Origin: Alphaproteobacteria bacterium
GTDB taxonomy: Bacteria > Pseudomonadota > Alphaproteobacteria > UBA828 > JAPUJA01
Length of the DNA stretch: 64,000 nucleotides
Assembly (NCBI GenBank): GCA_963694715.1
Contig: CAVOEB010000002.1
Location: forward strand, 4,305 to 68,304
Direction: 5' to 3'
Shown here: piece by piece, positions 6,070-44,143 of the stretch
Position numbering within the stretch: position 1 is the stretch's first letter
Layout: the number at the start of each line of letters is the position of its first letter
Made by a program: the position numbers and the translations under genes
Notes under the pieces: generated by a model
The model's database searches: none
What the model was told of the DNA's origin: nothing
What the model saw: only the letters and a program-made list of their open reading frames with translations

Positions 6070-6921
6070 TCAGGCGCCGAGGACGGCTGCGTGGTGGCGC
6101 AGGTGATTCTCAATGAAACTGCTGATGAAATAATAGCTGTGGTCGTAGCCGTCCTGCAAGCGAAGCTCGAGCTTCTGGCCGCCTGCCTTGCACGCTGCGA
6201 GGAACGCGTCGGGCAGAAGCAGGCTGTCCTTGAACTCGTCGCCCGAGCCCTGATCGACGAGGAAGGTCAGATCGTCGCGCGCCGCGCCGAGTACCAACTC
6301 ACAGGCGTCATAGGCGCGCCACGCGGCCTCGTCCGGGCCCAGATAACCGGCGAACGCCTTTTGCCCGACCTCACAGCGGGTCGGGTTGCAGATCGGCGCA
6401 AAGGCCGAGCAGGAGCGGTAGAGATCGGGATTGCGCAGCGCGGCGACCAGCGCGCCGTGACCACCCATGGAATGGCCGAAGATGCCTTGGCGCTCTTCGT
6501 CGGCCGGAAAGTGCTCGGTGATGTAGGCGGGCAATTCCTGGGTGACGTAGGAGTACATCTGGTAATGGGCCGACCAGGGCGCTTGCGTCGCATCGCAATA
6601 AAACCCCGCGCCGGAGCCGAAATTCCACGCCTCGTCCTCGCCCGCGATGCCGGTGCCACGCGGGCTGGTGTCGGGGGCAACGATCATCAGGCCGAGCTCG
6701 GCCGCGACGCGCTGGGCACCCGCCTTGATCGTGAAGTTCTCCTCGGTGCAGGTCAGCCCGGAGAGGTAAGTGAGCACGGGCACGGGGCCCTGCTCGGCCT
6801 GGGGCGGGTGAAACACGGAAAATCGCATCTCGCCGGCGCAAGCGTCGGAGACGTGGCTGTAAAAGCGGGTCGCGCCGCCGAAATGGCGGTGCTCCTCGCG
6901 CAAAACGGGTGCGGCACTCAT
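6070..6921 (-). CDS. frmB: S-formylglutathione hydrolase (esterase D family)
   Basis: 283-aa ORF with the GHSMGGHGA serine-hydrolase motif and FghA-like N-terminus. It sits immediately downstream of frmA with no gap. Confidence 0.85.
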   Translation of the reverse strand: MSAAPVLREEHRHFGGATRFYSHVSDACAGEMRFSVFHPPQAEQGPVPVLTYLSGLTCTEENFTIKAGAQRVAAELGLMIVAPDTSPRGTGIAGEDEAWNFGSGAGFYCDATQAPWSAHYQMYSYVTQELPAYITEHFPADEERQGIFGHSMGGHGALVAALRNPDLYRSCSAFAPICNPTRCEVGQKAFAGYLGPDEAAWRAYDACELVLGAARDDLTFLVDQGSGDEFKDSLLLPDAFLAACKAGGQKLELRLQDGYDHSYYFISSFIENHLRHHAAVLGA

Positions 6922-8031
<1,110 letters not shown>

Positions 8032-8124: not shown

Positions 8125-9120
8125 TTATTCAAGGCGGAAGACGACCGGGACATCGACCACCGCCTGAACGGGCTGCCCGGCCACAAGCGCCGGTGCGAAA
8201 CGCCAGCGACGGACTGCGTCGAGCGCGGCCTCGTCGAGCAGGGCGTAACCGCTGCTGGTACGCAGCTCGACGGCGACGGGCGCACCATCGGCGAGCACCG
8301 TCACTGCGAGCAGGGCCTCGCCTTCCTGACCGCGCCGGCGCGCGAGACGCGGATAATCGGGCCACGGGTTGTCGAGCCCCGGAAGATCAAACAGCGGCGC
8401 GCGGTCCACGCCCGGCCCTGCGACGGCGGGCGCCGCACCGGGCTCCGCGTTAGCCACTCTCGGGGGGGCTTCGCTCGTGGTGCTCGCCGCCGTCTCGACG
8501 GCCTGTCCCAGTACGGATGAGGCAGAGGCCTCAACCAATTGCACCGAGGGTATGGCAACGGGACGAGTAGTGACTGGGGCGGCGCGCGCGGCAGCCAGTG
8601 CAGGCTTTGCCGTGAGCGTCAGCAGGGCGAGCGCGGCCAGGGTAGCTGTCGGGATTTCGGGCTCGGCGAGTTCGGGCTCGGATTCCAGTGGCGGCCCGGC
8701 GGTGGGCTCGATGGCGGCGAGCTCGGCGACGTGTGCGATCTCTAAGGCCGGCCCAACAACCGGTTCCGGTTCGGGGCGTACTATCGACGCTTCAACGACG
8801 ACGGGCTGGGCCGCAGGTGGTTCGATGACCGTCTCGACGGGGCTGACCTCGGCGGGGTTGGCGTTCTGCATCGCCGGTGGCGTTGCCGTCGCGGGCGTAT
8901 CGGCAGCGGCTTGCGGCGCGGCGCCGACGATCTCGACCACGAGGGCGGCGCCCTCCCCCGCCGCGTCGCGCGGCCCCGCGGCCGGCCACAGCAGAACCGC
9001 CGCGACGGCGGCATGGACCAGCAGGGAAATAGCGAGTGCTATTAGCATGACGCGCACGCGCCAACGCCGGGGCGAGGCCGCCTCGGCGACGATCCGGGGG
9101 CCGACGGCGAGCGTGGTCAT
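8125..9120 (-). CDS. tonB: Energy transducer TonB
   Basis: N-terminal membrane anchor, long Pro/Ala/Glu-rich spacer and a conserved TonB C-terminal domain. Last gene of the btu operon. Confidence 0.75.
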   Translation of the reverse strand: MTTLAVGPRIVAEAASPRRWRVRVMLIALAISLLVHAAVAAVLLWPAAGPRDAAGEGAALVVEIVGAAPQAAADTPATATPPAMQNANPAEVSPVETVIEPPAAQPVVVEASIVRPEPEPVVGPALEIAHVAELAAIEPTAGPPLESEPELAEPEIPTATLAALALLTLTAKPALAAARAAPVTTRPVAIPSVQLVEASASSVLGQAVETAASTTSEAPPRVANAEPGAAPAVAGPGVDRAPLFDLPGLDNPWPDYPRLARRRGQEGEALLAVTVLADGAPVAVELRTSSGYALLDEAALDAVRRWRFAPALVAGQPVQAVVDVPVVFRLE

Positions 9121-9917
9121 GGCGCAGTTTCCGGCCGCTCGGGAGCGAGACAGCGCCAGGGCAGGACATAGCCCTGGCCGTCGACCTCACCGCGCAAGGC
9201 AGCGATGCCGTAGGTCTCGCGCAAATTCTCTTCGGAGAGCACGGCCATGGGCGCCCCTTCGGCAACCGCATGGCCGTCGTTGAGCAACACGAGACGGTGG
9301 CAAAAACGGGCAGCCAGGGCGAGGTCGTGAAGCACAACCAGCACGCCGCCGCCCTTGGCCGCAACGCCGGCGATCAACTCCATGACCCGAAGCTGGTGGT
9401 AGGGATCGAGCGCGGTGACGGGCTCATCCGCCAGGAGCAGGCGCGGTTCGACCGCGAGCGCCCGGGCGATCAGGACGCGCATGCGCTCGCCGTCGGACAG
9501 CTCGGTTACCGGCCGCGCGGCAAACGCGGTGACGTCCGCCTCGCTCATGGCGCGCGCGATCGCCTCGCGGTCCGTCCGCGCCGGGCGCTGCCACGGGCCG
9601 AGATGGGGCAGGCGGCCCAGCGCCACGACGCGCTCGACGGCAAGCGGCCAATGCACGCCAGCGCCCTGCGCGAGATAGGCAACCTCGCGCGCCAACGCCC
9701 GGCGCCGACCGCGAGCCGGAGGCGCGCCGACGATCTCAAGCCGCGTGAACGTCGCCGGCACGAGCCCAGCCGACGCCTTGAGCAAGGAGGTCTTGCCCGC
9801 GCCGTTGGGTCCGATCAGGCCGACCACCTCGCCCGGCCTGACGTCGAGATCGACGGCGTCGAGCACGGTGTGCTCGCCGTAGCGGACGATCAGTGCGCGG
9901 GCGGTGAGCAGGCTCAT
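9117..9917 (-). CDS. btuD: ABC transporter ATP-binding protein (FecE/FhuC/BtuD family)
   Basis: Walker A GPNGAGKTSLL, LSDGERMRVLIARAL signature and Walker B. Overlaps neighbours by 4 nt. The B12 assignment is inferred from the upstream riboswitch. Confidence 0.75.
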   Translation of the reverse strand: MSLLTARALIVRYGEHTVLDAVDLDVRPGEVVGLIGPNGAGKTSLLKASAGLVPATFTRLEIVGAPPARGRRRALAREVAYLAQGAGVHWPLAVERVVALGRLPHLGPWQRPARTDREAIARAMSEADVTAFAARPVTELSDGERMRVLIARALAVEPRLLLADEPVTALDPYHQLRVMELIAGVAAKGGGVLVVLHDLALAARFCHRLVLLNDGHAVAEGAPMAVLSEENLRETYGIAALRGEVDGQGYVLPWRCLAPERPETAP

Positions 9918-10945
9918 AGCACCTCCCGGCGAACCTTGACGACGAGCCAGAGGAAGAACGGCGCGCCTACCAGGGCGGTAAAGACGCCGAGCCGAAGCTC
10001 GGGCCCGGTTGAGACCAGACGCACGGCGATGTCTGCGGCCAGGGTCAGCGACGCGCCGCCGAGCGCACTCGCGGGCAACAACACGCCCGGCCGGTGGCCG
10101 ACCAACGGGCGTAGGATGTGGGGCACGACCAACCCGATAAAGCCGATACTGCCCGCCACCGACACGGCTGCGCCGACGGCGAGAGCGACGCCGAGTACGA
10201 GACGCAGCCGCAGCCGCTTGAGATCGACGCCGAGCGTGCGCGCGGTCTCTTCGCCTAACGACAGGGCCTCAAGAGGCCGGCCCAACCCGGCTAATAAGAT
10301 CCAGCCCACCACCATGAAGGGGGCGGCGAGCTGGACATGCTCGAAGCTGCGGTCGGCCAGCGAGCCGAGCAGCCAGAACAGGATCTCCATCGCCGCGTAG
10401 GGATTGGGCGCGAGGCTGAGCGCCAGAGAAGTGAGCGCGGCGGCGAGGCTGTTGATGGCGATGCCCGCCAGGATCAGTGACAACCCACTGCTGCCGCGGC
10501 CCGCGAGCAGGTGGATCAGTACCACCGAGACGAGCGCGCCGGCCATGCCGCCGAGCGGCAAGGCGAGGGGAAAGGCGGCGGCGAACCCGAAATAAAACAT
10601 CACCACGGCGCCCAGCGCCGCCGAACCAGAAACTCCGATCAGCGAGGGCTCGGCCAGCGGATTGCGCAACAGGCCCTGGAGCGCCGCGCCGGCCAGCCCC
10701 AGGGTGGCGCCGATCATGGTGGCGAGGATCGCCCGGGGCAGGCGGATTTCCTGCAGGATCAGCGCCAGGACCGAGCCGTTGTCGGCAAACAGGTGGCCGT
10801 AGGATTCGATCAGCGGGATCGGCGCGCGGCCGACCCCGAGCGAAAGCAAGAAGAGGACCAGAACGAGCAAACTGAGGCCGGCGAACAGCCAGCCGTCGCT
10901 CCGCCCGGCGAGGCGGCCCGATGCGCTCGCCGCGGGGCCGCTCAC
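9914..10945 (-). CDS. btuC: FecCD-family ABC permease
   Basis: 343-aa polytopic membrane protein of the FecCD/BtuC family. Confidence 0.75.
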   Translation of the reverse strand: MSGPAASASGRLAGRSDGWLFAGLSLLVLVLFLLSLGVGRAPIPLIESYGHLFADNGSVLALILQEIRLPRAILATMIGATLGLAGAALQGLLRNPLAEPSLIGVSGSAALGAVVMFYFGFAAAFPLALPLGGMAGALVSVVLIHLLAGRGSSGLSLILAGIAINSLAAALTSLALSLAPNPYAAMEILFWLLGSLADRSFEHVQLAAPFMVVGWILLAGLGRPLEALSLGEETARTLGVDLKRLRLRLVLGVALAVGAAVSVAGSIGFIGLVVPHILRPLVGHRPGVLLPASALGGASLTLAADIAVRLVSTGPELRLGVFTALVGAPFFLWLVVKVRREVL

Positions 10946-11799
10946 GGCGCTTCTCCATCATTGACATCGAGCGCCGCGCGCGCCGCGTCGGCCAGAAACG
11001 CCACCGCCTCGGCGAGAAACTCGCCGCCGCAGATCCACAACCGCGAGGGCACGAACAGCGTGGGGCGCTGGGCGATCGCATGCTGGAGCGCGGGATGGCG
11101 CAACAGGGTCTGGCCGAGCGACGCGGCGCCGGGCCAGTAACGCTCCATGAGCAGGACGTCGGGGTCGGCCGCGAGCAGACGCTCGAGCGAGAGGTAGCCG
11201 CCCACGCCTAGTCCGACCCGGGGGGCGAGGTTGATCAACCCCGCCTGACCGAGCAGGTCGTCGATTAGGGACGGTGCGCCGATGGTATGGCCGTTGGTCT
11301 GATAGACGGCAGCCACGGGGCGCCAGGCGCCCACGGGCGGGGCCAGAGCGGCGAGCCGGGCGTCGAGCGCGGCAAGCAGCGCCTCCGCCCGCACCGCTTC
11401 GCCGATCGCGGCTCCGACCTCGCGGATCTGCTCGCGCACGTCGGCAAGACTTTGGGCAACGGGCAGCTCGAGCACCGGAACGTCCAAGCGGCGCAGCAGG
11501 TTGACAGTGGCGCGGGTACTCATCGTGCCCGCCAGGACCAGATCGGGATGGAGCAGCAGCACCTCGTCGGCGCTGCCGCGCACGACCGGGAAGCGCTCGG
11601 CTTCGGCCGCGTGGTAGGAAAGATAGGGATCGCGCGCCACGAAGCTAAGGGCCGCGATGTGTTCGGGCTCAGCCAGCTCGAGCAGGATTTGGTCGGCGCA
11701 AAGGTTGAGGGAGACGATGCGCTCGGACTTGGCAACTGCCGACTCCGCCAACAGGAGCAGCAGCAGTACCAGCGCCAGAATCACGGTTGCAAAACGCAT
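10942..11799 (-). CDS. btuF: Periplasmic substrate-binding protein (BtuF/siderophore-binding class)
   Basis: Signal peptide MRFATVILALVLLLLLLAESAVA followed by a class III SBP-like fold (IVSLNLCADQILLEL). Confidence 0.7.
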   Translation of the reverse strand: MRFATVILALVLLLLLLAESAVAKSERIVSLNLCADQILLELAEPEHIAALSFVARDPYLSYHAAEAERFPVVRGSADEVLLLHPDLVLAGTMSTRATVNLLRRLDVPVLELPVAQSLADVREQIREVGAAIGEAVRAEALLAALDARLAALAPPVGAWRPVAAVYQTNGHTIGAPSLIDDLLGQAGLINLAPRVGLGVGGYLSLERLLAADPDVLLMERYWPGAASLGQTLLRHPALQHAIAQRPTLFVPSRLWICGGEFLAEAVAFLADAARAALDVNDGEAP

Positions 11800-11825
11800 C
11801 GTCCCCCCTCCCTTCTCCCGCAGCG

Positions 11826-13763
11826 CTAGAAGTCGAACCCGACGCCGAACAGACCGGCGATGCCCGGGCGGGCGAATCCGTCGGCGATTTCGTAGTCGCG
11901 ATCAAACAGGTTTTCCACCCGGCCCTGCAGGTGCACGCCGTCACCCAAATCGTAGGCTGCCGCAACATCGACGACCGTGTAGCTCGCCATGCGCACGCCG
12001 CCCACATCTACGGTCGAGCCCGTGTGTAGGGTTGCGAAATTGACGGTCAGGAGATCGAGCGGATACCAGGTCAGATTGACCGACGCCTTGTGCTTTGGCC
12101 GGCGCAGCAAATCCTCGTTGATCGACGAATCGAACGCGCGGGTAAAGGTGTAGTCGAGAGCAACCAGAACCTCGGGCAACGGCTGCACCTCGATAAAGGT
12201 TTCGATCCCGCGGGTTTTCGCCTCGTCGACGTTGCGGGTGGTAAACAGACCGGCTCCGGCGTCGAACACGAAGCCATCGATCAACTCGTCGATGTCGTTC
12301 TCGAAATAGGTCGCGCCCAACACCAGGCGTCCTGCAAGCAGCTCCTGCTCGACCCCCGCATCCCAGCCGAAGCTCTTCTCCGGCACGAGATCGGCATTAC
12401 CGAAAAACAGTCCGCTCACGCCGCCGAACAGATCGACCAGCGACGGAGCCTTGAAGCCGGTGCCGACGCTGGCGCGAAATGTCGTCGCCGTCTCGAGATG
12501 GCGATAGCCAAGACTCGCGCCGTAGGTGGTTTCGGATTCGAAGTCCCGGTTGTTGTCGCCGCGCACGCCAAGCGTGCCGAATACGCGCTTCGCAAACTCG
12601 AATTGGTACTCGGCGAAGGCACTATAGGTGCGCGACTGATCGGCAAAATTGAAGAATGCGCCGCCTCCGCTCTCGCCCTGTTCACGGCGGGCCTCAAGCC
12701 CAAGCACCAGCGTGCCGAGTGGGGCAATCTGGAAATCGTTGAGCAGGGCCGCCTCCATGACCGTCCCGTCGAAGATCGAGCGGCTGGTCTCGCCGACCCC
12801 CGATTCGGGGGGATTGTCGTTCTGGAAATCCTGATCGTTGAACCCGCCCGTCAACCGGGCACCCCAGAGATCGTCAACGAGGTCGGCCTTAACGTCGAGC
12901 TGAGCCAGACGGATCGTTCTAGAATCTTCGGCGTTCACATCGTCCGCCCCGAAGCTATCGATTTCGGTGACAGCCCTGACATACTGGCCGTAGAGGTCGA
13001 CCGTCACGCTCTCAGTCGGTGAAAAACCCAAGGCGATAGACGCGACATCGTTGCGGAAGCCGTCGTTCTCGGGGTTGCCCTCATCGTCGGGTGCGATCGA
13101 GACGCCATCGGTCCTGAGCTTCGCCAGATTGAGCTGCATGGTCACCGGCCCGGCATCGCCTCCCAGCCCCCAACGGCCCGAGACGGTCCGAAAGCTTCCG
13201 GCTTCAACGTGAGCGGAACCGGTGATAGGTCCGCTGACCCGTTTGGTGATAACGTTAATCACCCCGCCGATGGCGTCGGAGCCGTACAATACGCTGCGCG
13301 GACCCCGGACGATTTCGATGCGCGCGATATTATCTACCAACAAAGATTGCGGATCGAACACTCCGCCCGATCCAGCCGGATCACCGGCCCGCCGGCCGTT
13401 GACGAGAAAGAGCACGTGATTCGACTCGGTGCCGCGCATGAAGATTGAGGTCGCCGTTCCAGCACCGCCCAACTGGACGAGATTGAGCCCGGGTACGCTT
13501 CGCAAAGCGTCGTTGACGGAGCGGTGCTGACGCTCCTCAATTTCCTCAGCCGTTATAATCGTGATGGAACTCGCGACGCTCGTCGCCGGGGTGGGCAGGC
13601 TGGTCGCGGTAACGACGACGGGAGACGTCGTCCGGGTTGCCGGCTCCGGGTCTGCGGCACCGACGGTCGAGCTGATCGAAAGGGCGGCAAGAAGCGACGC
13701 ACCGGCCGCGACAGCGAGGCGACGAGAGGGCAACGATCGAATAGAACGTGGTGATTCGGGCAT
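11826..13763 (-). CDS. btuB: TonB-dependent outer-membrane receptor, probable cobalamin receptor
   Basis: Start MPESPRS at 13763, preceded by GGAG. Signal peptide, TonB box SPVVVTATS, plug and barrel, C-terminal aromatic (…GFDF). Lies downstream of a cobalamin riboswitch. Confidence 0.8.
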   Translation of the reverse strand: MPESPRSIRSLPSRRLAVAAGASLLAALSISSTVGAADPEPATRTTSPVVVTATSLPTPATSVASSITIITAEEIEERQHRSVNDALRSVPGLNLVQLGGAGTATSIFMRGTESNHVLFLVNGRRAGDPAGSGGVFDPQSLLVDNIARIEIVRGPRSVLYGSDAIGGVINVITKRVSGPITGSAHVEAGSFRTVSGRWGLGGDAGPVTMQLNLAKLRTDGVSIAPDDEGNPENDGFRNDVASIALGFSPTESVTVDLYGQYVRAVTEIDSFGADDVNAEDSRTIRLAQLDVKADLVDDLWGARLTGGFNDQDFQNDNPPESGVGETSRSIFDGTVMEAALLNDFQIAPLGTLVLGLEARREQGESGGGAFFNFADQSRTYSAFAEYQFEFAKRVFGTLGVRGDNNRDFESETTYGASLGYRHLETATTFRASVGTGFKAPSLVDLFGGVSGLFFGNADLVPEKSFGWDAGVEQELLAGRLVLGATYFENDIDELIDGFVFDAGAGLFTTRNVDEAKTRGIETFIEVQPLPEVLVALDYTFTRAFDSSINEDLLRRPKHKASVNLTWYPLDLLTVNFATLHTGSTVDVGGVRMASYTVVDVAAAYDLGDGVHLQGRVENLFDRDYEIADGFARPGIAGLFGVGFDF

Positions 13764-13994
13764 GGCTGACTCCGTTGGGAAACGTGGAATCCGCTGACGC
13801 CGGACGAGAGACGGGGATCGCCCGGGTAACAACCGAGCAAAGCGCGGCACCCGGACGGATGATGAGACGATCGAGCTACGGAACTTGTGAGCGGCCACCC
13901 CGAACATCCCTACACGGCAACAGCAGTTCCCTGCGTCACCACATACGGATTAACCGTCCCGTCGGGAGTCCCCACCCAACGGGTATGCGACGCT

Positions 13995-14170
13995 ATCCGA
14001 CGGCAGGTCTCCTGGCTTGCGGGTCACCGCCCGACACCCGGCCTTCCCAGTTTCCCAGTGGCACACGAGGGGTGCGGACTCGCCGCTGACAGTTGCGGGG
14101 GCAGCCACGTTTCGGTCTCAATCCGACCGCACCGTGTTCCCTTTTCAGCCCGCAGAAGCGGGCACCGTCG
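13995..14170 (-). ncRNA. Cobalamin (AdoCbl) riboswitch in the btuB leader
   Basis: Minus-strand sequence reads GGTGCC…GGGAACACGGTGCGGTCGGATTGAGACCGAAACGTGGCTGCCCCCGCAACTGTCAGCGG…GTGCCACTGGGAAACTGGGAAGGCCGGG…AAGCCAGGAGACCTGCC. The B12-box and the conserved GCCACTG / GGGAAGGC elements of RF00174 are all present. Confidence 0.8.
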
Positions 14171-14188
14171 CTATAAGGACTATAGGCC

Positions 14189-14228
14189 AAAAAAAGCGGC
14201 GGAGTAATCTCATTTGCTCCGCCGCCTC
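14189..14228 (-). terminator. Rho-independent terminator after the GcvT-family gene, upstream of the riboswitch
   Basis: On the minus strand, hairpin GCGGCGGAGCAAATGAGATTACTCCGCCGC followed by TTTTTTT. Confidence 0.55.
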
Positions 14229-14265
14229 GTTTCCGGGGCGCACAACCGTGCGCCCGTTAGCGCGC

Positions 14266-15366
14266 TTACATCGCGTGCAAGCGCTCCTTTTTCGGATCGA
14301 CGAAGGGGATCGGCACCACGGTGGCCGAACAGCTGACGGTCTCGCCCTTGATCTCGACCGCAGTGCCGGTCGCGGCGTGGGCCGGAGCGACATGGCACAT
14401 GGCGATCGACTTGCCGAGCGCACGGGAGAAGGCGGGGCTGTTAACAACGCCGACCTTCTCGCCGCCGACCATGACGACGGCGCCGATATCGACGGCACCG
14501 TCGTGCTGCGCCTCGATCCCGCAGGTCACGACCTTTTCCTTGCCTTCAAGCTCGAACAGCGCCTTGCGGCCACGGAAATCACCCTTCTTGCGCGAGACGG
14601 CCCAGGCACAGGCGCATTCCCACGGCGTATGGTCGGGCGTCGCATCGCCGCCGTAGAACAGCAACGCGCTCTCGACGTGGAGGACGTCGATGCCGCCAAA
14701 GCTGATCGGCAGCAAGCCCATGGGCTTGCCGTTCTCGAAGATCTGGTTGTAGACGTCGACCGCGTTGGCCGCGTTCACCATCACCTCGTAGCCCCGCTCG
14801 CCGGAGAACCCGGTGCGCGAAATGCGGACGTCCACGCCATAAATTTTGGTGCTCATCTGGTGACAGAACGCTAGCTCGGCGATAGAATCCGCGGCATCCG
14901 CGCCTAGCAGATCGACCGACTTCGGCCCCTGCACGGAGAGCATGTGCAGATCGTCGTCGAGTTCAACAGCAGCATCCTTGCCGGCCGCGGACTCGTTCAC
15001 CCGCTCGACGCCCTCACCCCCGCCATGGACCACGAGGTAGTGGTTTTCGGCCAGGTTGTAGATATAGGCATCGTCGCAGAAATGCCCGTTGCCCAGAAGG
15101 ACGGGCGTGTAAGCCGACTTGCCGACGTAGATCTTGCTCATGTCGCGGGTGGCGAGATGATCGACCACCGCCAGGGCGTCGGGCCCACGGACATGAAGTT
15201 TCTTGAGCGCGGAGGTGTCCCACATGCCGACGCCGTTGCGCACTGCGTCCCGCTCGTCCTGAGAGTCGGTGGGGAAAGTGAAAGGAACATCCATGTCGTT
15301 CCATTCGCCCATTTCCGCGCCCAGTTCGCGCAAGCGTGCGTCGAGCGCCGATACCCGTTTGGCCAT
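14266..15366 (-). CDS. Aminomethyltransferase (GcvT/DmdA) family protein, probably folate-binding
   Basis: 366 aa from MAKRVSALDA at 15366. GcvT-family fold pattern. Starts 52 nt downstream of the TMADH stop on the same strand. Confidence 0.75.
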   Translation of the reverse strand: MAKRVSALDARLRELGAEMGEWNDMDVPFTFPTDSQDERDAVRNGVGMWDTSALKKLHVRGPDALAVVDHLATRDMSKIYVGKSAYTPVLLGNGHFCDDAYIYNLAENHYLVVHGGGEGVERVNESAAGKDAAVELDDDLHMLSVQGPKSVDLLGADAADSIAELAFCHQMSTKIYGVDVRISRTGFSGERGYEVMVNAANAVDVYNQIFENGKPMGLLPISFGGIDVLHVESALLFYGGDATPDHTPWECACAWAVSRKKGDFRGRKALFELEGKEKVVTCGIEAQHDGAVDIGAVVMVGGEKVGVVNSPAFSRALGKSIAMCHVAPAHAATGTAVEIKGETVSCSATVVPIPFVDPKKERLHAM

Positions 15367-15418
15367 AATCAAACTCCCTTTCTGTACTCGTTCAGCCGTC
15401 ACATTCAGCCGTTTGGCT

Positions 15419-17593
15419 CTAGCTCAGCTTCGGCATATTTTCCTGACCCCAGATCTGACGCTCACGAATGTAGGGCATCGGACGCTGAGGATTGGGGGAC
15501 TCGAACTCGCGGGCGATCCGGTGGCCCTCGAACACCGCGTCCGCGATGTAGCGCGGTGCGTAGGCGTCGCCCGAGAGATAGATCGCCTGGATCTCGTTTT
15601 CCTCCCACTCGGCCTTGCGGGCCTTAAGCTCGCGGAACAGGCCATCATTGGAGAGCCGCGCCGTACACAGCACGACGGTATCGACCATGAGATCCTCATG
15701 TTCGGTGCCCTGGGTGCGGGGCAGTTCGCCGACCCGCGGCTCGGTGGTGCGCCGATAGCCGTCACGCGAGAGATCGTAGGCCCGCACGCGAACCTCGTTG
15801 CCGACTTCGATCTCCTCGACCCAGTGACCGGTCATTTCCTTGATCTTCTTTTCGTGCAGCATGCGGTGCAGGTTCGGCCCCTCGAGGGTGAACTCGGTGT
15901 AGGGCGCAACCTCACCCAACTGGGTGATAATGGTCACGTCCTTGCCCTGGTCCTTGAGAAACTCGGCCATGCCGACACCGGTGAAATAGCCATCGGCATC
16001 GAGCACCACGACCCGGTCGCCCACTTCCTTGCCCGCCATGACCTGCTCGGGCGTGCAGAACTGCGCCTGCGAGGAATCAACGTTGGCGATGGTCTCGTGG
16101 TCGACGCAGTTGTGGCCGTTGCCGGCCCAGTAAGATCCGGTCGCAATGACGACCTTGTCCGCGCCGTAGCCCAGCACGTCGTCGGTCGACAGACGCGTCT
16201 TTGTGTGGACCTCGACATTCTTCAACTTGTCGAGCTGGAGCTCGCGGTAGGTCACGATGCGGCCCCACTCGGAGAGGCCGGGATAGCGCTGAATTTCCTT
16301 CATGGAGCCGCCGACCTCGGCGTCGGCCTCGACGAGATGAACCTCGAAACCGCGCATGCCGAGCACCCGCGCGCATTCCAGACCCGAAGGTCCGGCCCCG
16401 ACGACGAGCACCGACGCCTCCTCAGGCGCCTTCTCGAACTTCTCGGGATGCCAGCCGCGGCGGTATTCTTCCATCGCGGTGGCGTTCTGGGTGCAGATCA
16501 GCGGCGGACCGCCGATCTCCCAACGCGAGATGCACATGTTGCAACCGATGCATTCGCAGATGTCTTCGGGCCTGCCTTCCTCAATCTTCGTGGGCAGGAA
16601 GGGGTCGGCGATCGAGGGCCGCGCCGCACCGATGATATCGGCCTGGCCCGACTTGATGATCTCGACCATGTCGTCGGGGCTCGTGACACGCCCGACGGTG
16701 AGGACCGGCACGTTGGCCACGTCCTTGACGCCCTTGACCCATGGTCGCTGGTGGTTCGCCTTGTAGAAACGCGACGGCCCCGCATCCTCGCCCCACTCGG
16801 CGATGTCGGAAATATTGACGTCCCACAGATCGGTCAACCCCTCGCGGGTGACGAGCTCGACGAACTTCATGCCGTCCTCGCCCATTTCGACACCAGCCGA
16901 ACCGATGATGGTGTCGATGGCGAAGCGGGTGACGACGCCACAGTTCGCACCGACGGCGGTCTTCACGCCCTCAAGGCATTCCATCCAAAAGCGGGCGCGG
17001 TTCTCGATGTTGCCGCCATACTTGTCGGTGCGCTTGTTGTAGTACGTGGAGAGAAACTGCAGTGGCAGATAGCTGTGCGAGCCGTAAACGTAGATCAGAT
17101 CGAATCCGGCCTGCTCAGCGCGCTTGGCACCCTCGACATACATCTGAACGAGCTGCTTGACGTCGTCTTCGTCGGCCTCGTGAGGATAGGTCCGGTTTTC
17201 GAAGTTCGACGAAAAGGGCGACGGGCTCATGGGCACGTGGCGGGTGTCCATGCAGGGAGCATGGGGGCCGCCATGCCACATCTCGCAGCCGACCAACGCG
17301 CCGTGCTCGTGGCAGCTTTCGGTCAGGTGGCGCAGATTGATGACATCGCCGTCGTCCCACAGCCGCGCGTGGACGCGCGGCGTATCGTCGGAATCCGGAT
17401 CGATCGAGCAGTATTCGGTGCACACAGCGCCCCAGCCGCCCTCGGCGCGGATCGAACGAAAGCTCGCCTGGCCGCCCGGCTTATCGGATCCGGCTCCGAT
17501 ACAGTGGGGCACCTGGTAGAAGCGGTTCTTCATCGTCTTAGGCCCAATCTTGATGGGCTCGAACAGAATGTCGTATTTTGGATCGCGTGCCAT
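15419..17593 (-). CDS. tmd: Trimethylamine (or dimethylamine) dehydrogenase, FMN/4Fe-4S/ADP three-domain family
   Basis: 724 aa. N-terminus ARDPKYDILFEPIKIGPKTMKNRFYQVPHCIGAGSDKPG and the cluster motif CECIGCNMCISRWEIGGPPLICTQNATAMEEYRRGWHPEKF align almost residue for residue with the Methylophilus TMADH sequence as recalled. Preceded by GGGAG at -8. Confidence 0.85.
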   Translation of the reverse strand: MARDPKYDILFEPIKIGPKTMKNRFYQVPHCIGAGSDKPGGQASFRSIRAEGGWGAVCTEYCSIDPDSDDTPRVHARLWDDGDVINLRHLTESCHEHGALVGCEMWHGGPHAPCMDTRHVPMSPSPFSSNFENRTYPHEADEDDVKQLVQMYVEGAKRAEQAGFDLIYVYGSHSYLPLQFLSTYYNKRTDKYGGNIENRARFWMECLEGVKTAVGANCGVVTRFAIDTIIGSAGVEMGEDGMKFVELVTREGLTDLWDVNISDIAEWGEDAGPSRFYKANHQRPWVKGVKDVANVPVLTVGRVTSPDDMVEIIKSGQADIIGAARPSIADPFLPTKIEEGRPEDICECIGCNMCISRWEIGGPPLICTQNATAMEEYRRGWHPEKFEKAPEEASVLVVGAGPSGLECARVLGMRGFEVHLVEADAEVGGSMKEIQRYPGLSEWGRIVTYRELQLDKLKNVEVHTKTRLSTDDVLGYGADKVVIATGSYWAGNGHNCVDHETIANVDSSQAQFCTPEQVMAGKEVGDRVVVLDADGYFTGVGMAEFLKDQGKDVTIITQLGEVAPYTEFTLEGPNLHRMLHEKKIKEMTGHWVEEIEVGNEVRVRAYDLSRDGYRRTTEPRVGELPRTQGTEHEDLMVDTVVLCTARLSNDGLFRELKARKAEWEENEIQAIYLSGDAYAPRYIADAVFEGHRIAREFESPNPQRPMPYIRERQIWGQENMPKLS

Positions 17594-18057
17594 GAGATCG
17601 GCTCCCTTCCAGCTTGGGTTCGTTACCCGGCTTGGCCGGGCATTTTCATCTTCGCGCCGGGGTGACCCGACGGTAAATTTACAACGTGGGGCACATGGCC
17701 CCGAACATAATCAATCGAGCGAATATGGCGTCGATCGACCCGGCAGCCTTGATTCAAATCAAGCCCGCTTCGGGGCCCTCGCCCCGTCGGCGAACTCGAC
17801 GAACAGCTTATGACGCCGACAGACAGCCCGCGGAAACCTTCTTTTTCAGTATACAGCAATTCGTCCGCCAACGCGCCTTCCGGACGTCGGCGGTCTATAT
17901 TACTGCGCAGTTCACCAGTCTCTCCCATTCGATCCCCGGCGCCGTTCGCACTCGCTGTTTCCCGCCGCACAGGCTCGTTCCATGCCCGGCCTGTTTCATC
18001 GGAACCGGAACGCAACTTAGCCAAATTGGCCTATTGGTCCAACTATACCGATTATAT

Positions 18058-18576
18058 CTATTGGTTCTGCGTCATATAGCCATAATGCGAACTTACAATG
18101 GACCAATTATGAGTAACCGGTCTAGTTCGTGGCCGGATCCGATTTTTGTTCTCCCGCAAGCTCAACAGGGCTCGATGCAGCTGACCGGTCGAAGCAACGG
18201 GGCACCACCCCCCCCCTCCGTCGACTTCAACCATGAAGTAATAGCTGTCGCGCAGCGCGAGCTGATTGGTTCGATCAGGATCCTGCGCGCCGGTCACGGC
18301 TCCTGCCGCCAGCCAGGTGACGCCGATAATGGTGCCGAGATCGATCCGGGGCATATGGACGGAATTTGGCAGAGTGACGGAACGCTTGCCAACGGCGTCG
18401 CACAGAACCACCCGGCCGCTTGCGCCAAGACAGATAGTGTCGAACGCCGAGCCCGCCACAGCCGAGGACGATGCGCCCAGCGCCAGGACGGCGCCGAGGA
18501 TCACGATCCTTTGAGCGCGCCCTATTGACCGGCCGGCGGCAGGTTGGTGTTCCAGACGTCGAGCGCGATCTGCCAT
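18058..18576 (-). CDS. Hypothetical Cys-containing, possibly secreted protein (uncertain)
   Basis: 172-aa ORF with a hydrophobic N-region. Its 3-prime end lies in the low-GC palindrome-rich zone, so it may be spurious or shorter. Confidence 0.3.
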   Translation of the reverse strand: MADRARRLEHQPAAGRSIGRAQRIVILGAVLALGASSSAVAGSAFDTICLGASGRVVLCDAVGKRSVTLPNSVHMPRIDLGTIIGVTWLAAGAVTGAQDPDRTNQLALRDSYYFMVEVDGGGGWCPVASTGQLHRALLSLRENKNRIRPRTRPVTHNWSIVSSHYGYMTQNQ

Positions 18577-19010
18577 TTTCCGTTCGGTCCGCGCCGCCAG
18601 ACCAGCGCGTACTTGCCTTCATCGCTGATCTCAGCCCCGCCCCGGGGTGTAAAGGAGAGCGTGAAATCACCCCGCGACCAGCCCAGCGTGCCGTTGCGCT
18701 CGGCCTGGCTGTTGGTCAGGGTCAATTCGAAGGCATCCATGGCGCCGAAGAATCCATCCCAGAATTCGACGATGGCGTCACGGCCCTCAACGGGCCCGCC
18801 GTTCGGCGCCATGATGACACCGTCCTTCGCATAAAGCTGGCCGAGTACCGTGGCGTCGCCCACGTTGAAGGTCTCGACGAACCCGGCAATGCCATCCTCG
18901 ACCTTGCGCTCGAACCAGTCGGCACGGGCGGCGTTGGGCGTGGTGAGAAAACCCGCCGCGAGTACCACTGCGGCAAGCGCCAAAACGCGGCGGCGAAGCA
19001 AGTTAGTCAT
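18522..19010 (-). CDS. SnoaL-like / DUF4440 (NTF2-fold) periplasmic protein
   Basis: Signal peptide MTNLLRRRVLALAAVVLAAG, then an NTF2-like pattern (…GDATVLGQLYAKDGVIMAPNGGPVEGRDAIVEFW…KWQIALDVWN). Confidence 0.6.
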   Translation of the reverse strand: MTNLLRRRVLALAAVVLAAGFLTTPNAARADWFERKVEDGIAGFVETFNVGDATVLGQLYAKDGVIMAPNGGPVEGRDAIVEFWDGFFGAMDAFELTLTNSQAERNGTLGWSRGDFTLSFTPRGGAEISDEGKYALVWRRGPNGKWQIALDVWNTNLPPAGQ

Positions 19011-19161
19011 GGCAGGATCTCCCGGGATGGTGCGGCGGGATCAACCCGCCTTACGAGCATAATAGCAGACGATCCCAACGCGAGCGCACGACGGTCCGAG
19101 CTTCACGAGGCGGGCCCCGCCCGCCCCGGATGAGCTTCACGCCGGCATTGAGCCAGAGGAC

Positions 19162-19533
19162 CTAGCCGACGGTCTTGCCGTAATAGCAGATGACCTCGGA
19201 GAGAACGCCGGCGTCGGCGACCTTGATCAGGCCCGTGCCCTCGAAGGGAGTGCCGGCAATTGCCCACCAGCACCACACGGTGACCGTGCCGTCGTCCTCT
19301 TCCTTAGTGACCACTTCTGTTATGTCCATGAAGTTGTCGAACGCCTTGCCGGCGCGGATTTCGTCCACTGCCAACTTGAGCGCGGCAAAATAGGACTCGA
19401 AATCCGCCTTGGCGATCTTGCCCGCGTTGGGATCGTCGAAATAGAAACTGTCGGCGGTCGACTTCATGTGACAGCCGGAATCGCCGGTGACCCAGCCCTG
19501 AGCGTAGGTCCCGATGTGATCGGATATGGCCAT
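19162..19533 (-). CDS. Hypothetical small protein, possibly NTF2-like
   Basis: 123-aa ORF with protein-like composition. No specific family recognised. Confidence 0.5.
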   Translation of the reverse strand: MAISDHIGTYAQGWVTGDSGCHMKSTADSFYFDDPNAGKIAKADFESYFAALKLAVDEIRAGKAFDNFMDITEVVTKEEDDGTVTVWCWWAIAGTPFEGTGLIKVADAGVLSEVICYYGKTVG

Positions 19534-21396: not shown

Positions 21397-21472
21397 TGGC
21401 GTCCCCAGGGGGAGTCGAACCCCCGTTTTCGGCGTGAGAGGCCGACGTCCTAGGCCACTAGACGATGGGGAC
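21397..21472 (-). tRNA. tRNA-Glu (anticodon CUC)
   Basis: Minus-strand sequence GTCCCCATCGTCTAGTGGCCTAGGACGTCGGCCTCTCACGCCGAAAACGGGGGTTCGACTCCCCCTGGGGACGCCA folds as a cloverleaf. Anticodon loop CTCTCAC gives CUC. Close match to E. coli tRNA-Glu. Encoded CCA. Confidence 0.85.
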
Positions 21473-42999: not shown

Positions 43000-43923
43000 T
43001 CAGGGACGCTGCGCGGTGCCGGGAAGGACGGCGCCGGTCTGACCGAATTCGGATTCGTAATGGGCCCGCTGTCGCTGAGCGGCAATCACCGTGTTGCGCA
43101 TCAGGATTGATACCGTGACGGGGCCAACGCCGCCCGGCACGGGCGTGATCCATCCGGCCACCTCGCGGCAGGACTCGTAATCCACGTCGCCCACGGTGAT
43201 CAAGCGGCCATCTTCGTCCTCGATCCGGTTGATCCCGATATCGATTACGACAGCGCCCGGCTTGATCATCTCGGCCGTTATCATGCGCGGCTTGCCGACG
43301 GCGACGAACAGCGCGTCCGCCTGGCGTGAATGTACGGCGAGATTTCGTGTCATATGGTGACAGACGGTGACCGTAGCGCCTTCCGCCATGAGCAGAAAGG
43401 CAATCGGCTTGCCGACGATCTCGGAGTGCCCGACGATGACCGCGTCCAGTCCCTCCAACGCAACCCCCGTACGCCGGAGCATCTCGACCGACGCGGCGGC
43501 CGTACAAGGGGCGAGCTCAATCTCGTTGTAGACGATGTTACCGATCGAGGCTGGGTGCATGCCTTCGACGTCTTTAAGCGGATGCACCGCGCTTTGCAGC
43601 TCCTTGATGCTGAGCGGCTTGGGCACCGGACGCTGGACGATGATCCCCGTGACCCGGGGATCGACATTCAAGGTCGCAATTGCCGCTAGGATTTCACCGC
43701 GGGTCACGTCGGCCGGAAAATGACGTTCCTCGAAGGCGATACCCGCCGTCTCGGCGCGCCGGCGCTGATTGCGGACATAGACTTCGACCGGCGCCGTATC
43801 GCCGATGGTGATCGAGACAAGCCGCGATGGCCAGCCGGTAGAGACAAGGGCCTGGGCCGCGTCGCGCACCTGACCGAGGATTTCCTCGGATACGGCCTTA
43901 CCGTCAATGTCTTTGTGATGCAT
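43000..43923 (-). CDS. folD: Bifunctional methylene-THF dehydrogenase / methenyl-THF cyclohydrolase
   Basis: Start MHHKDIDGKAVSEEI at 43923. Motifs GKPIAFLL and PVPGGVGPVTVSIL. Confidence 0.9.
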   Translation of the reverse strand: MHHKDIDGKAVSEEILGQVRDAAQALVSTGWPSRLVSITIGDTAPVEVYVRNQRRRAETAGIAFEERHFPADVTRGEILAAIATLNVDPRVTGIIVQRPVPKPLSIKELQSAVHPLKDVEGMHPASIGNIVYNEIELAPCTAAASVEMLRRTGVALEGLDAVIVGHSEIVGKPIAFLLMAEGATVTVCHHMTRNLAVHSRQADALFVAVGKPRMITAEMIKPGAVVIDIGINRIEDEDGRLITVGDVDYESCREVAGWITPVPGGVGPVTVSILMRNTVIAAQRQRAHYESEFGQTGAVLPGTAQRP

Positions 43924-44143
43924 GCGTTCTCGTAGGGAATACAGTTTCTGCCCCGTCCGGGCGTACACACCATAAGTAATGGCGCCAACGAACTACCACT
44001 GTTTTAAATTCCATGGTAGAGACGATGGTACTGGTACCGCGCGCTAATTCACGCGATAGTCAGGGTAAGAGCTCCACTTTTTTCTACTGTCATGGCAGCG
44101 AAAGGTGATGGGCACGATTATTGCATATTTGGAGACCAAAACC

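What the first reader, a model, noticed from the sequence alone, without database searches (positions are those of the whole stretch)
14266..17593. Trimethylamine-dehydrogenase-family gene coupled to a GcvT-family aminomethyltransferase: a possible folate-linked formaldehyde-capture pair
The flavin/4Fe-4S TMADH-family enzyme releases formaldehyde during oxidative N-demethylation. Here a 366-aa GcvT-family (folate-binding aminomethyltransferase-like) gene starts only 52 nt downstream on the same strand. The arrangement is reminiscent of the fused GcvT-like domain of TMAO demethylase and the THF site of sarcosine oxidase. A two-protein system that hands formaldehyde to tetrahydrofolate would be a less-described route than the glutathione-dependent frmAB genes at 6070-8031. 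The window also carries folD, ltaE, serA/serC and betA, all consistent with a C1/methylamine lifestyle.
Basis: partly seen in the sequence, partly recalled or inferred. Interest (0 to 1): 0.6.

Follow-up and report, generated by a model that had tools for sequence, protein, structure and literature searches.

The report
Trimethylamine dehydrogenase with folate-binding partner
A two-gene operon pairs a trimethylamine-dehydrogenase-type enzyme, which releases toxic formaldehyde, with a small folate-binding protein of the DmmD type that most likely traps that formaldehyde on tetrahydrofolate; this pairing recurs in many bacteria but I found no paper describing it.

Summary
On the minus strand, a 724-aa TMADH-family gene (15419-17593) is followed after 52 nt by a 366-aa GcvT-family gene (14266-15366). 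Together they form a discrete bicistronic unit.

- **The dehydrogenase.** It is 57% identical to the solved TMADH of Methylophilus W3A1. It keeps Cys30, the 4Fe-4S cysteines, the Y60/W264/W355 aromatic bowl and the Y169/H172/D267 triad. It lies outside the clade holding the W3A1 TMADH and the DMADH-signature sequences, and it has His74 and E344/R442 where W3A1 has S74 and V344/Y442.
- **The partner.** It is not GcvT, DmdA or Tdm. It belongs to the clade of standalone proteins that includes DmmD of dimethylamine monooxygenase. It shares three THF-contact residues with the Tdm folate domain and lacks the GcvT-specific His, Asn and Arg.
- **The linkage.** It is strongly conserved: 22 of 23 proteobacterial loci of this enzyme type have the partner, against 0 of 21 paralogues lacking the catalytic pair. 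It occurs in several gene orders, including tmd-etfD-etfBA-gcvT-like operons, one of them in cultured Paracoccus aminovorans.

The folate-linked formaldehyde-capture reading is therefore well supported by genomics but biochemically unproven. The idea has a precedent in DmmD and Tdm, so this is a new variant of a known kind.

The parts
15419..17593 (-). tmd-like gene: 724-aa FMN / 4Fe-4S / ADP-binding amine dehydrogenase of the trimethylamine dehydrogenase family
   Evidence: Pfam. PDB 1djn E 6e-276. 57% identity to W3A1 TMADH. C30, Y60, W105, Y169, H172, Y174, R222, W264, D267, W355 and C345/348/351/364 are conserved; S74 is His; V344/Y442 are E/R.
15367..15418 (-). 52-nt intercistronic spacer with Shine-Dalgarno AAGGGAG (15380-15374), 7 nt before the ATG
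   Evidence: Sequence read directly.
14266..15366 (-). DmmD-like standalone GcvT-family (tetrahydrofolate-binding) protein, 366 aa
   Evidence: Pfam GCV_T + GCV_T_C. Below all NCBIfam equivalog cut-offs. AlphaFold model pLDDT 93.9, TM 0.90-0.92 to T-proteins, DMGDH, SoxA and DmdA. Falls in the DmmD-like clade. Folate-site residues conserved.
14190..14255 (-). Two GC-rich hairpins (14255-14236 and 14228-14193, the second running into a U-run at 14196-14190): intrinsic terminator closing the two-gene operon
   Evidence: RNA fold -40.4 kcal/mol, z = -4.32, 0 of 200 shuffles as stable. The pattern scan missed it because of the long loop.
13985..14184 (-). Cobalamin riboswitch that starts the neighbouring, unrelated B12-uptake operon (boundary marker, not part of the system)
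   Evidence: Rfam RF00174, 116.7 bits against a gathering score of 31.5.

Best explanation
The two genes form an operon for oxidative N-demethylation of trimethylamine, or a very similar small methylated amine, with built-in one-carbon salvage.

- **Step 1 (inferred from a fully conserved active site).** The TMADH-type enzyme binds the alkylammonium head group in its Y60/W264/W355 aromatic bowl and oxidises a methyl C-N bond at the covalently bound FMN. Electrons pass through the 4Fe-4S cluster to an electron-transfer flavoprotein encoded elsewhere in the genome. The iminium product hydrolyses to the demethylated amine plus formaldehyde.
- **Step 2 (inferred from family membership, conserved folate-site residues and conserved gene linkage).** The co-translated DmmD-like protein binds tetrahydrofolate in a T-protein cloverleaf. 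It converts the formaldehyde, or the iminium itself, to 5,10-methylene-THF. This is what the C-terminal domain of TMAO demethylase does, and what is proposed for DmmD of dimethylamine monooxygenase.
- **Step 3 (inferred).** Methylene-THF is then oxidised through FolD (a folD gene lies at 43000-43968) or used for serine synthesis.

Formaldehyde that escapes would be handled by the glutathione-dependent FrmA/FrmB encoded 6 kb away. Whether the two proteins dock physically is unknown.
For: Enzyme identity:
- Full-length match to TMADH structures.
- All cofactor, catalytic and substrate-bowl residues are conserved.

Partner identity:
- High-confidence T-protein fold.
- Below the cut-offs for GcvT (224.8 against 300), DmdA (147.8 against 410), Tdm and SoxA.
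- In an NJ tree it sits on a long stem (0.49) with R. etli DmmD, which lies next to annotated dmmA, a PDR/VanB oxidoreductase and DUF3445. It is separate from the E. coli, B. subtilis and T. maritima GcvT and from the Tdm C-terminal domains.
- The DD motif (E. coli D97) and the SRTG(Y/F)(S/T)GE.GYE motif are invariant in 49 clade members. So are the counterparts of Tdm R480, F672 and K782 (window R74, W255, K360). The GcvT-specific His of VSHM, Asn113 and Arg223 are lost, exactly as in Tdm (THF contacts from PMC13619132).

Linkage:
- The partner lies within 10 kb in 22 of 23 proteobacterial loci of the same enzyme type, against 0 of 21 paralogues lacking Y169/H172.
- The arrangements differ: directly downstream; tmd, EtfD-EtfB fusion, etfA, gcvT-like; etf and gcvT-like upstream of tmd; divergent (L018); and downstream of DMADH-type Q60/T74/F105 genes (L035, L047, L049).
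- Cultured P. aminovorans JCM7685 carries tmd, an Hdr-like FeS protein, an LRV protein, etfB, etfA and an aminomethyltransferase-family gene.
- The partner phylogeny does not mirror the enzyme phylogeny, which points to repeated recruitment.

Precedent:
- Tdm channels formaldehyde to its THF domain (PMC13619132).
- DmmD is needed for normal growth on methylated amines (PMC5520151, PMC4543880).
Against: - No biochemical data exist for this protein, for any TMADH-linked homologue, or even for DmmD itself; its role is a hypothesis in the cited papers.
- The window enzyme lies outside the well-supported clade that holds the W3A1 TMADH and the DMADH-signature (Q60/T74/F105) sequences. It has His at specificity position 74 and E344/R442 at the W3A1 ETF-docking positions, so substrate and redox partner may differ.
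- No ETF, transporter or downstream methylamine genes lie in the 64-kb window.
- No natural TMADH-GcvT fusion was found among the best 120 hits to a concatenated query.
- Some canonical TMADH loci (Ferrovum L028, Hyphomicrobium L039, Pseudomonadales L106) lack the partner, so it is an accessory, not a requirement.
- Formaldehyde also reacts with THF spontaneously, and the genome has a glutathione route.
- The linkage statistic is not corrected for shared ancestry, and deep nodes of both trees are poorly supported.
Confidence: 0.62

Rival explanations
1. The pair works as proposed, but the dehydrogenase's physiological substrate is not trimethylamine. It could be another secondary or tertiary methylated amine, for example dimethylamine or an N,N-dimethyl compound. 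The DmmD-like protein still captures the C1 unit.
For: - The enzyme is only 57% identical to W3A1 TMADH and lies outside the clade holding the W3A1 TMADH and the DMADH-signature sequences.
- It has His74 instead of Ser (TMADH) or Thr (DMADH-type) at a specificity position.
- Genomes carry up to five paralogues with varied residues at positions 60, 74 and 105 (L020, L022).
- DmmD-like genes also follow 671-687-aa OYE/FeS enzymes.
Against: Y60, W105, W264, W355, Y169, H172, Y174, D267 and R222 are identical to TMADH. Most clade members have Ser74, as TMADH does.
Confidence: 0.25
2. The GcvT-family protein is itself a THF-dependent demethylase or methyltransferase, like DmdA or LigM. It would act on a methylated substrate in a separate pathway step rather than capturing formaldehyde made by the dehydrogenase.
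For: - The GCV_T fold includes true methyl-transfer enzymes: DmdA 3tfh at TM 0.90 and LigM at TM 0.73.
- Close homologues (52-59% identity) sit next to a glycosyltransferase-like protein plus two cupins instead of a dehydrogenase. The family is therefore not tied to one partner.
Against: - DmdA model score is 147.8 against a cut-off of 410; the LigM and DesA models give only E 1e-11 to 1e-15.
- The protein shares residues specifically with the Tdm formaldehyde-capture domain.
- Its known or annotated partners (TMADH and DMADH types, DmmABC) all release formaldehyde.
- Unactivated methylamines are poor methyl donors (established chemistry; my own knowledge).
Confidence: 0.1
3. The 366-aa protein is the ordinary glycine-cleavage T protein, and its position next to tmd is incidental.
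For: The best NCBIfam hit by E-value is a GcvT subfamily model (1.5e-66). The fold is closest to the B. subtilis and T. maritima T proteins.
Against: - Scores are below every GcvT cut-off: 224.8 against 300, 175 against 236, 167 against 459.
- No gcvH or gcvP lies in the window or in any related locus.
- It is separated from GcvT by a long branch.
- The GcvT-invariant His, Asn113 and Arg223 are absent.
- Linkage to tmd is conserved.
Confidence: 0.03

Closest known systems
DmmD, the GcvT-like fourth gene of dimethylamine monooxygenase dmmDABC (R. pomeroyi SPO1579, M. silvestris Msil_3605, P. aminophilus; PMC5520151, PMC4543880)
   Same: It is a standalone GCV_T + GCV_T_C protein of about 366-377 aa. 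It falls in the same clade as the R. etli p42e dmmD-position protein, at 42% identity. It is encoded beside an enzyme that N-demethylates a methylamine and releases formaldehyde. The proposed role is the same: formaldehyde plus THF gives methylene-THF.
   Different: The partner here is an ETF-linked FMN/FeS dehydrogenase, not the NADPH-dependent DmmABC monooxygenase. No dmmABC lies in the window. The window protein sits in a different sub-clade from R. etli DmmD.
C-terminal THF-binding domain of TMAO demethylase Tdm (PDB 9q59; PMC13619132)
   Same: It is the best sequence match among solved structures (E 2e-46). It shares R480, F672 and K782 equivalents and the loss of the GcvT His, Asn113 and Arg223. 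Conversion of enzyme-generated formaldehyde to methylene-THF is experimentally shown for Tdm.
   Different: In Tdm the domain is fused to the DUF1989 Zn catalytic core and is fed by an internal tunnel. Here it is a separate polypeptide, and nothing is known about docking. Tdm F582 lies in an insertion that is absent here.
Trimethylamine dehydrogenase of Methylophilus methylotrophus W3A1 (PDB 2tmd, 1djn; complex with ETF 1o94)
   Same: Same three-domain architecture, covalent-FMN cysteine, 4Fe-4S motif, aromatic bowl and catalytic triad.
   Different: Identity is 57%, and the window enzyme lies outside the clade holding the W3A1 TMADH and the DMADH-signature sequences. It has S74H and V344E/Y442R. 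Of the two betaproteobacterial and Hyphomicrobium loci sampled from the W3A1-type clade (Ferrovum L028, Hyphomicrobium L039), neither has a GcvT-like gene within 10 kb.
Dimethylglycine dehydrogenase/oxidase and heterotetrameric sarcosine oxidase alpha subunit
   Same: These are amine-oxidising flavoenzymes whose formaldehyde or iminium product is captured by a GcvT-fold THF domain. Structural match TM 0.89-0.92.
   Different: They have a different catalytic domain (DAO-type FAD), and the THF domain is fused rather than separate. Sequence identity is only 23-24%.

Membership tests
Trimethylamine/dimethylamine dehydrogenase family (EC 1.5.8.2 / 1.5.8.1) | Three-domain architecture: N-terminal OYE-type FMN barrel plus two ADP-binding-type domains, about 725-735 aa | tested here: met
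   Pfam PF00724 + PF22620 + PF07992. End-to-end alignment with 1djn, residues 2-721 against 1-719.
Trimethylamine/dimethylamine dehydrogenase family (EC 1.5.8.2 / 1.5.8.1) | Cys30 (6-S-cysteinyl FMN) and the 4Fe-4S ligands C345, C348, C351, C364 | tested here: met
   All five cysteines are present in the MAFFT alignment with W3A1 TMADH.
Trimethylamine/dimethylamine dehydrogenase family (EC 1.5.8.2 / 1.5.8.1) | Substrate aromatic bowl Y60/W264/W355 and catalytic Y169-H172-D267, Y174, R222 | tested here: met
   All are identical to W3A1. The roles of these residues are from my own knowledge of the TMADH literature.
Trimethylamine/dimethylamine dehydrogenase family (EC 1.5.8.2 / 1.5.8.1) | Specificity triplet: Y60/S74/W105 for TMADH, Q60/T74/F105 for DMADH | tested here: inconclusive
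   Y60 and W105 are TMADH-type, but position 74 is His in the window, L043 and L001.
Trimethylamine/dimethylamine dehydrogenase family (EC 1.5.8.2 / 1.5.8.1) | Falls inside the clade of biochemically characterised enzymes | tested here: not met
   The W3A1 TMADH together with the DMADH-signature (Q60/T74/F105) sequences forms a 100%-supported clade that excludes the window enzyme. Deeper nodes are unresolved. No sequence of a characterised DMADH was included.
Trimethylamine/dimethylamine dehydrogenase family (EC 1.5.8.2 / 1.5.8.1) | ETF as electron acceptor, docking at V344/Y442 | tested here: inconclusive
   The window has E344/R442 and no etf gene. Relatives with the same E/R pair do have etfBA and an EtfD-like gene in the operon.
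Trimethylamine/dimethylamine dehydrogenase family (EC 1.5.8.2 / 1.5.8.1) | Oxidative demethylation of TMA or DMA with release of formaldehyde | not testable with these tools
   Needs an enzyme assay.
DmmD-like standalone THF-binding proteins | Single-polypeptide GCV_T + GCV_T_C of about 366-377 aa that clusters with dmmD-position proteins and apart from GcvT and Tdm | tested here: met
   Pfam. NJ tree with a stem branch of 0.49; bootstrap values for that node were unreliable after rerooting.
DmmD-like standalone THF-binding proteins | Encoded next to dmmABC | tested here: not met
   No DmmA, DmmB or DmmC homologue in the window. The neighbour is a TMADH-type gene instead.
DmmD-like standalone THF-binding proteins | Folate-site residues (DD motif, GE.GYE, and R/W/K equivalents of Tdm R480/F672/K782) | tested here: met
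   D98, D99, E190, Y193, E194, R74, W255 and K360 are conserved in at least 47 of 49 clade members.
DmmD-like standalone THF-binding proteins | Binds THF and forms methylene-THF from formaldehyde | not testable with these tools
   Not shown experimentally even for DmmD (PMC5520151).
Glycine cleavage T protein (GcvT) | Reaches the curated model cut-off | tested here: not met
   NF001567 224.8 against 300; TIGR00528 175.1 against 235.85; NF010093 167.1 against 459.
Glycine cleavage T protein (GcvT) | Genomic association with gcvH and gcvP | tested here: not met
   No tblastn hit for E. coli GcvH or GcvP in the window or in the TMADH loci L001-L065.
Glycine cleavage T protein (GcvT) | GcvT-invariant His (VSHM), Asn113 and Arg223 (E. 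coli numbering) | tested here: not met
   These are replaced by Ala, a 3-residue deletion and Ile respectively, as in Tdm. The functional roles of these residues are from my own knowledge.
DMSP demethylase DmdA | Reaches the curated model cut-off | tested here: not met
   NF009133 147.8 against 410.
TMAO demethylase Tdm | N-terminal DUF1989 Zn catalytic domain fused to the THF domain | tested here: not met
   Only profile positions 386-762 of 763 match (224 against 1100). The protein is 366 aa long.

The most novel reading that the evidence does not exclude
DmmD-like proteins are a general plug-in formaldehyde or iminium-capture module that physically docks onto unrelated N-demethylating enzymes, including ETF-linked TMADH and DMADH-type dehydrogenases. 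The classic 'free formaldehyde' product of TMADH would then in vivo be channelled straight into the folate pool. By extension, the glycosyltransferase-like protein plus two cupins that accompanies the closest environmental homologues would be an undescribed methylamine-demethylating enzyme. That could be relevant to the reported marine dimethylamine bottleneck (PMC5520151).
Probability: 0.2. Interest if true: 0.7.

Novelty: new variant of a known kind. Interest (0 to 1): 0.45.

Why it matters
TMADH is a textbook enzyme for flavin/FeS electron transfer, and its formaldehyde product has been treated as released free. The recent P. aminovorans TMA-degradation preprint routes it only through formaldehyde dehydrogenase and glutathione pathways (10.64898/2026.04.15.718846).

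A conserved operon partner that loads this carbon onto tetrahydrofolate would change three things:
- how carbon and toxicity are budgeted in dehydrogenase-type methylamine catabolism;
- which genes are used as markers for methylated-amine turnover in metagenomes;
- how TMA-degrading strains are engineered.

It also extends the DmmD/Tdm principle from monooxygenase and demethylase routes to the ETF-linked route. A cultured, genetically tractable test system exists: P. aminovorans JCM7685 plasmid IV, genes RS17160 to RS17135.

Tried and rejected
- **Natural fusions.** I searched the 5.8-billion-protein collection with a concatenated TMADH + GcvT-like query. All 120 best hits are 702-732-aa single TMADH-type proteins, with no fusion.
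- **Supporting genes in the window.** tblastn with EtfA, EtfB, the EtfD-like protein, DmmA/B/C, Tmm, GmaS and the HAAT-type binding protein found nothing. Tdm hit only the GcvT-like gene. GcvH and GcvP found nothing.
- **Literature.** Searches combining trimethylamine or dimethylamine dehydrogenase with GcvT, aminomethyltransferase, tetrahydrofolate or dmmD found no paper describing the pairing. Only open-access papers are covered.
- **Gene-less 930 bp upstream of tmd (17594-18521).** No Pfam or NCBIfam hit. Amino-acid identity to L043 is below nucleotide identity. No Rfam family matched. The promoter scan gave no more than chance. I treat it as non-coding.
- **TonB receptor and ABC genes downstream.** I first considered them part of the system. 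I rejected this because they sit behind a terminator and a cobalamin riboswitch, and they are syntenic only in the closest relative, L043.
- **dmmABC next to the closest homologues.** I assumed the 53-59% homologues would sit next to dmmABC. They do not; they sit next to a GT-like protein plus two cupins.
- **Identity to W3A1.** My first by-eye estimate of 63% was wrong. The alignment gives 57%.
- **Tree runs.** A first tree run timed out. In the NJ trees, some bootstrap values after rerooting are unreliable.


Full report
**1. What is in the sequence**

Both genes lie on the minus strand. The ORF at 15419-17593 encodes 724 aa with Oxidored_FMN (E 1e-91), the OYE-like second alpha/beta domain and Pyr_redox_2. 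The ORF at 14266-15366 encodes 366 aa with GCV_T (E 3e-61) and GCV_T_C (E 7e-14).

- After the second stop codon come two GC-rich hairpins and a U-run at 14190-14255 (-40.4 kcal/mol, z = -4.3).
- Immediately beyond lies a cobalamin riboswitch at 13985-14184 (116.7 bits).
- That riboswitch heads a TonB-dependent receptor (11826-13907) and a periplasmic-binding-protein / FecCD / ABC / TonB cluster (8125-11799).

The pair is therefore a self-contained bicistronic operon, and the downstream genes are an unrelated B12-uptake unit. Upstream lies about 930 bp without a conserved ORF. Beyond that come a SnoaL/DUF4440 gene and a 123-aa gene, both conserved in the two closest relatives.

**2. The dehydrogenase**

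It aligns end to end with trimethylamine dehydrogenase of M. methylotrophus W3A1 (1djn/2tmd, E 6e-276) at 57% identity. Histamine dehydrogenases score far lower, at E 1e-165 and 1e-153.

In an alignment of 73 family members, the window enzyme keeps:
- Cys30;
- the four 4Fe-4S cysteines;
- the aromatic bowl Y60/W264/W355;
- Y169/H172/D267, Y174, R222 and W105.

It differs in two respects:
- His replaces Ser74. This is seen only in the window and its two closest relatives.
- E344/R442 replace the V344/Y442 of W3A1. To my knowledge those are ETF-docking residues.

In an NJ tree, the W3A1 enzyme, P. aminovorans and the Rhodobacteraceae TMADH sequences form a 100%-supported clade with the Q60/T74/F105 (DMADH-signature) sequences. 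That clade excludes the window enzyme. The window enzyme sits among other Y60/E344/R442 lineages, and the deep order of those lineages is unresolved. It is thus a bona fide TMADH-type amine dehydrogenase. It has not been shown to be an orthologue of the characterised TMADH, so TMA is the most likely substrate but an unproven one.

**3. The GcvT-family protein**

It is below every curated cut-off: GcvT 224.8 against 300, DmdA 147.8 against 410, and Tdm and SoxA through their C-terminal domains only. Its best solved relative by sequence is the THF-binding C-terminal domain of Paracoccus TMAO demethylase (9q59, E 2e-46), narrowly ahead of B. subtilis GcvT. An AlphaFold model (pLDDT 93.9) superposes at TM 0.89-0.92 on T proteins, DMGDH, DMGO, SoxA and DmdA.

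The decisive comparison came from annotated plasmids.
- In R. etli CFN42 p42e, a 42%-identical 'aminomethyltransferase family protein' sits directly upstream of annotated dmmA, a PDR/VanB oxidoreductase and a DUF3445 protein.
- The same cluster holds folD, purU, a type III glutamine synthetase (gmaS-like), an FAD monooxygenase and a DUF1989 (tdm) gene.
- This is the canonical dmmDABC neighbourhood.

In a tree, the window protein, this DmmD and all TMADH-linked proteins share a long stem branch (0.49). They lie apart from the E. coli, B. subtilis and T. maritima GcvT and from the Tdm C-terminal domains.

Across 49 clade members:
- The DD motif (E. coli D97) and the GE.GYE motif are invariant.
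- The equivalents of three of the four THF contacts named for Tdm are conserved: R480, F672 and K782 correspond to window R74, W255 and K360. The fourth, F582, lies in a Tdm-specific insertion.
- The GcvT-invariant His of VSHM, Asn113 and Arg223 are replaced or deleted, exactly as in Tdm (PMC13619132).
- No gcvH or gcvP is nearby.

The protein is therefore a DmmD-type standalone THF-binding protein, not a glycine-cleavage T protein.

**4. Conserved linkage**

A scan of one genome per species returned 65 loci with TMADH-family genes.

| Enzyme type | Loci with a DmmD-like gene within 10 kb |
|---|---|
| Proteobacterial, window signature (Y60, Y169, H172, E344, R442) | 22 of 23 |
| Paralogues lacking Y169/H172, same flank sizes | 0 of 21 |
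| DMADH-type | 3 of 7 |
| Canonical TMADH | 3 of 8 |
| A60-type paralogues | 2 of 7 |

Fisher's test on the first two rows gives p = 3e-9, uncorrected for phylogeny.

The arrangements differ:
- directly downstream of tmd, as in the window (18 loci);
- tmd, then a membrane Fer4/CCG 'EtfD-like' protein fused to EtfB, then etfA, then the gcvT-like gene (L012, L013, L016, L017, L107);
- EtfD-EtfB, etfA and the gcvT-like gene upstream of tmd, in a gammaproteobacterial MAG;
- divergent (L018);
- downstream of DMADH-type genes and followed by an APC permease (L035, L047, L049).

Cultured Paracoccus aminovorans JCM7685 has, on plasmid IV, a canonical TMADH (74% identical to W3A1). It is followed by a heterodisulfide-reductase-like FeS protein, an LRV-repeat protein, etfB, etfA and an aminomethyltransferase-family protein that is 44% identical to the window's. 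Actinobacterial loci carry a more distant 474-486-aa GCV_T protein in the same kind of operon.

The partner tree does not mirror the enzyme tree. The window's partner groups with proteins linked to other modules. The partners of the 70%-identical enzymes group with R. etli DmmD. This points to repeated recruitment rather than one inherited accident.

There are negative cases: Ferrovum, Hyphomicrobium and a Pseudomonadales MAG lack the partner. No natural fusion was found.

**5. Mechanism**

The best-supported reading has three steps.
- The dehydrogenase oxidatively demethylates TMA, or a close analogue, and passes electrons to an ETF encoded elsewhere.
- The co-expressed DmmD-like protein converts the formaldehyde or iminium product to 5,10-methylene-THF.
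- FolD (43000-43968) or serine synthesis consumes the methylene-THF.

FrmA (TIGR02818, 605 against 544) and FrmB (TIGR02821, 434 against 282) at 6070-8031 provide a parallel glutathione route for escaped formaldehyde.

What is shown: gene structure, family placement, residue conservation, fold and linkage. What is inferred: substrate, THF binding, formaldehyde capture and any physical docking.

**6. Comparison with what is known, and novelty**

- The idea that a separate GcvT-like protein conjugates formaldehyde from methylamine demethylation with THF was proposed for DmmD (PMC5520151; PMC4543880). Those papers attribute it to Zhu et al. 2014, which I did not read.
- Channelling to a fused THF domain has now been demonstrated for Tdm (PMC13619132).
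- What I could not find in six literature searches is any link between TMADH or DMADH and such a protein.
- A 2026 preprint on TMA degradation by P. aminovorans routes TMADH-derived formaldehyde only through formaldehyde dehydrogenase and glutathione enzymes.
- Databases name the partner generically as 'aminomethyltransferase family protein'.

This is therefore a new variant of a known kind: a DmmD-type module attached to the ETF-linked dehydrogenase route.

**7.

- The analogy to Tdm and sarcosine oxidase is apt, but DmmD is the closer precedent.
- The 'C1/methylamine lifestyle' argument is weak. serA, serC, folD, purA, hisZ, groEL and the aminotransferases are housekeeping genes.
- The GMC oxidoreductase passes the choline-dehydrogenase subfamily cut-off (686 against 605) but not the betA equivalog cut-off (643 against 732).
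- No dedicated methylamine genes other than the pair are in the window.

**8. Verdict**

Interest is moderate (0.45). The result is testable in a cultured organism, it extends a known principle, and it comes with one side lead worth following: the GT-like-plus-cupin module.

Noticed in passing
window 8125-14184 (-): A cobalamin riboswitch (13985-14184) is followed by a TonB-dependent receptor (11826-13907), a Peripla_BP_2 binding protein, a FecCD permease, an ABC ATPase and a TonB_C protein. This is a complete B12-type uptake operon directly downstream of the pair. It is syntenic in L043 but not in L001.
   Followed up: partly
L066-L072, L081-L105 (not in the window): The closest large group of homologues of the window's GcvT-like protein (52-59% identity, mostly marine or sediment metagenomes) is almost always divergently adjacent to a conserved cluster. 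The cluster holds a 429-aa UDPGT/Glyco_tran_28_C-like protein, two Cupin_3 proteins of about 115 aa and a Peripla_BP_6 ABC transporter. In L068 an FMO-like gene and folD lie nearby. There is no DmmABC. This may be an undescribed demethylating module.
   Followed up: partly
L012, L013, L016, L017, L061, L020, L107 (about 1000-1070 aa ORFs): These are natural fusions of a membrane Fer4/CCG heterodisulfide-reductase-like protein (EtfD-like) with an ETF beta subunit. They are followed by etfA, inside TMADH-type operons. In P. aminovorans and Rhodobacteraceae the same parts are separate genes, with an LRV-repeat protein between them.
   Followed up: partly
L020 and L022 (Alphaproteobacteria MAGs): These loci hold arrays of four to five TMADH-family paralogues within about 12 kb. 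They vary at substrate positions 60, 74, 105 and 174 (A/L/W, A/L/M, A/L/V, and others). This suggests a diversified set of amine dehydrogenases of unknown specificity.
   Followed up: no
window 17594-18521: About 930 bp between the SnoaL-like gene and tmd has no conserved ORF. Amino-acid identity to L043 is 52-59%, against 85% at the nucleotide level. There is no Rfam match. This is unusually long for an intergenic region in this genome.
   Followed up: partly
window 18522-19533 (-) and L078: A SnoaL/DUF4440 protein (162 aa) and a 123-aa protein without family hits precede tmd in the window, L043 and L001. In metagenome contig L078, a SnoaL/DUF4440 gene directly precedes a 62%-identical GcvT-like gene with no TMADH between them.
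   Followed up: no
window 6070-8031 (-): S-formylglutathione hydrolase (TIGR02821) and S-(hydroxymethyl)glutathione dehydrogenase (TIGR02818) both pass their equivalog cut-offs. A glutathione-dependent formaldehyde route therefore lies 6 kb from the putative folate-linked one.
   Followed up: yes
L040, L057, L045 (Actinomycetota / Thermoleophilia MAGs): TMADH-type genes with the full TMADH active-site signature sit in operons with etfB, etfA and an EtfD-like gene. In L040 and L057 the operon also holds a longer (474-486 aa) GCV_T protein. That protein branches near the Tdm C-terminal domains rather than with the DmmD-like clade.
   Followed up: no
window 21400-21472 (-): A tRNA gene (Rfam RF00005, 62.6 bits) lies between the choline-dehydrogenase-like gene and a TPR protein gene.
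   Followed up: no
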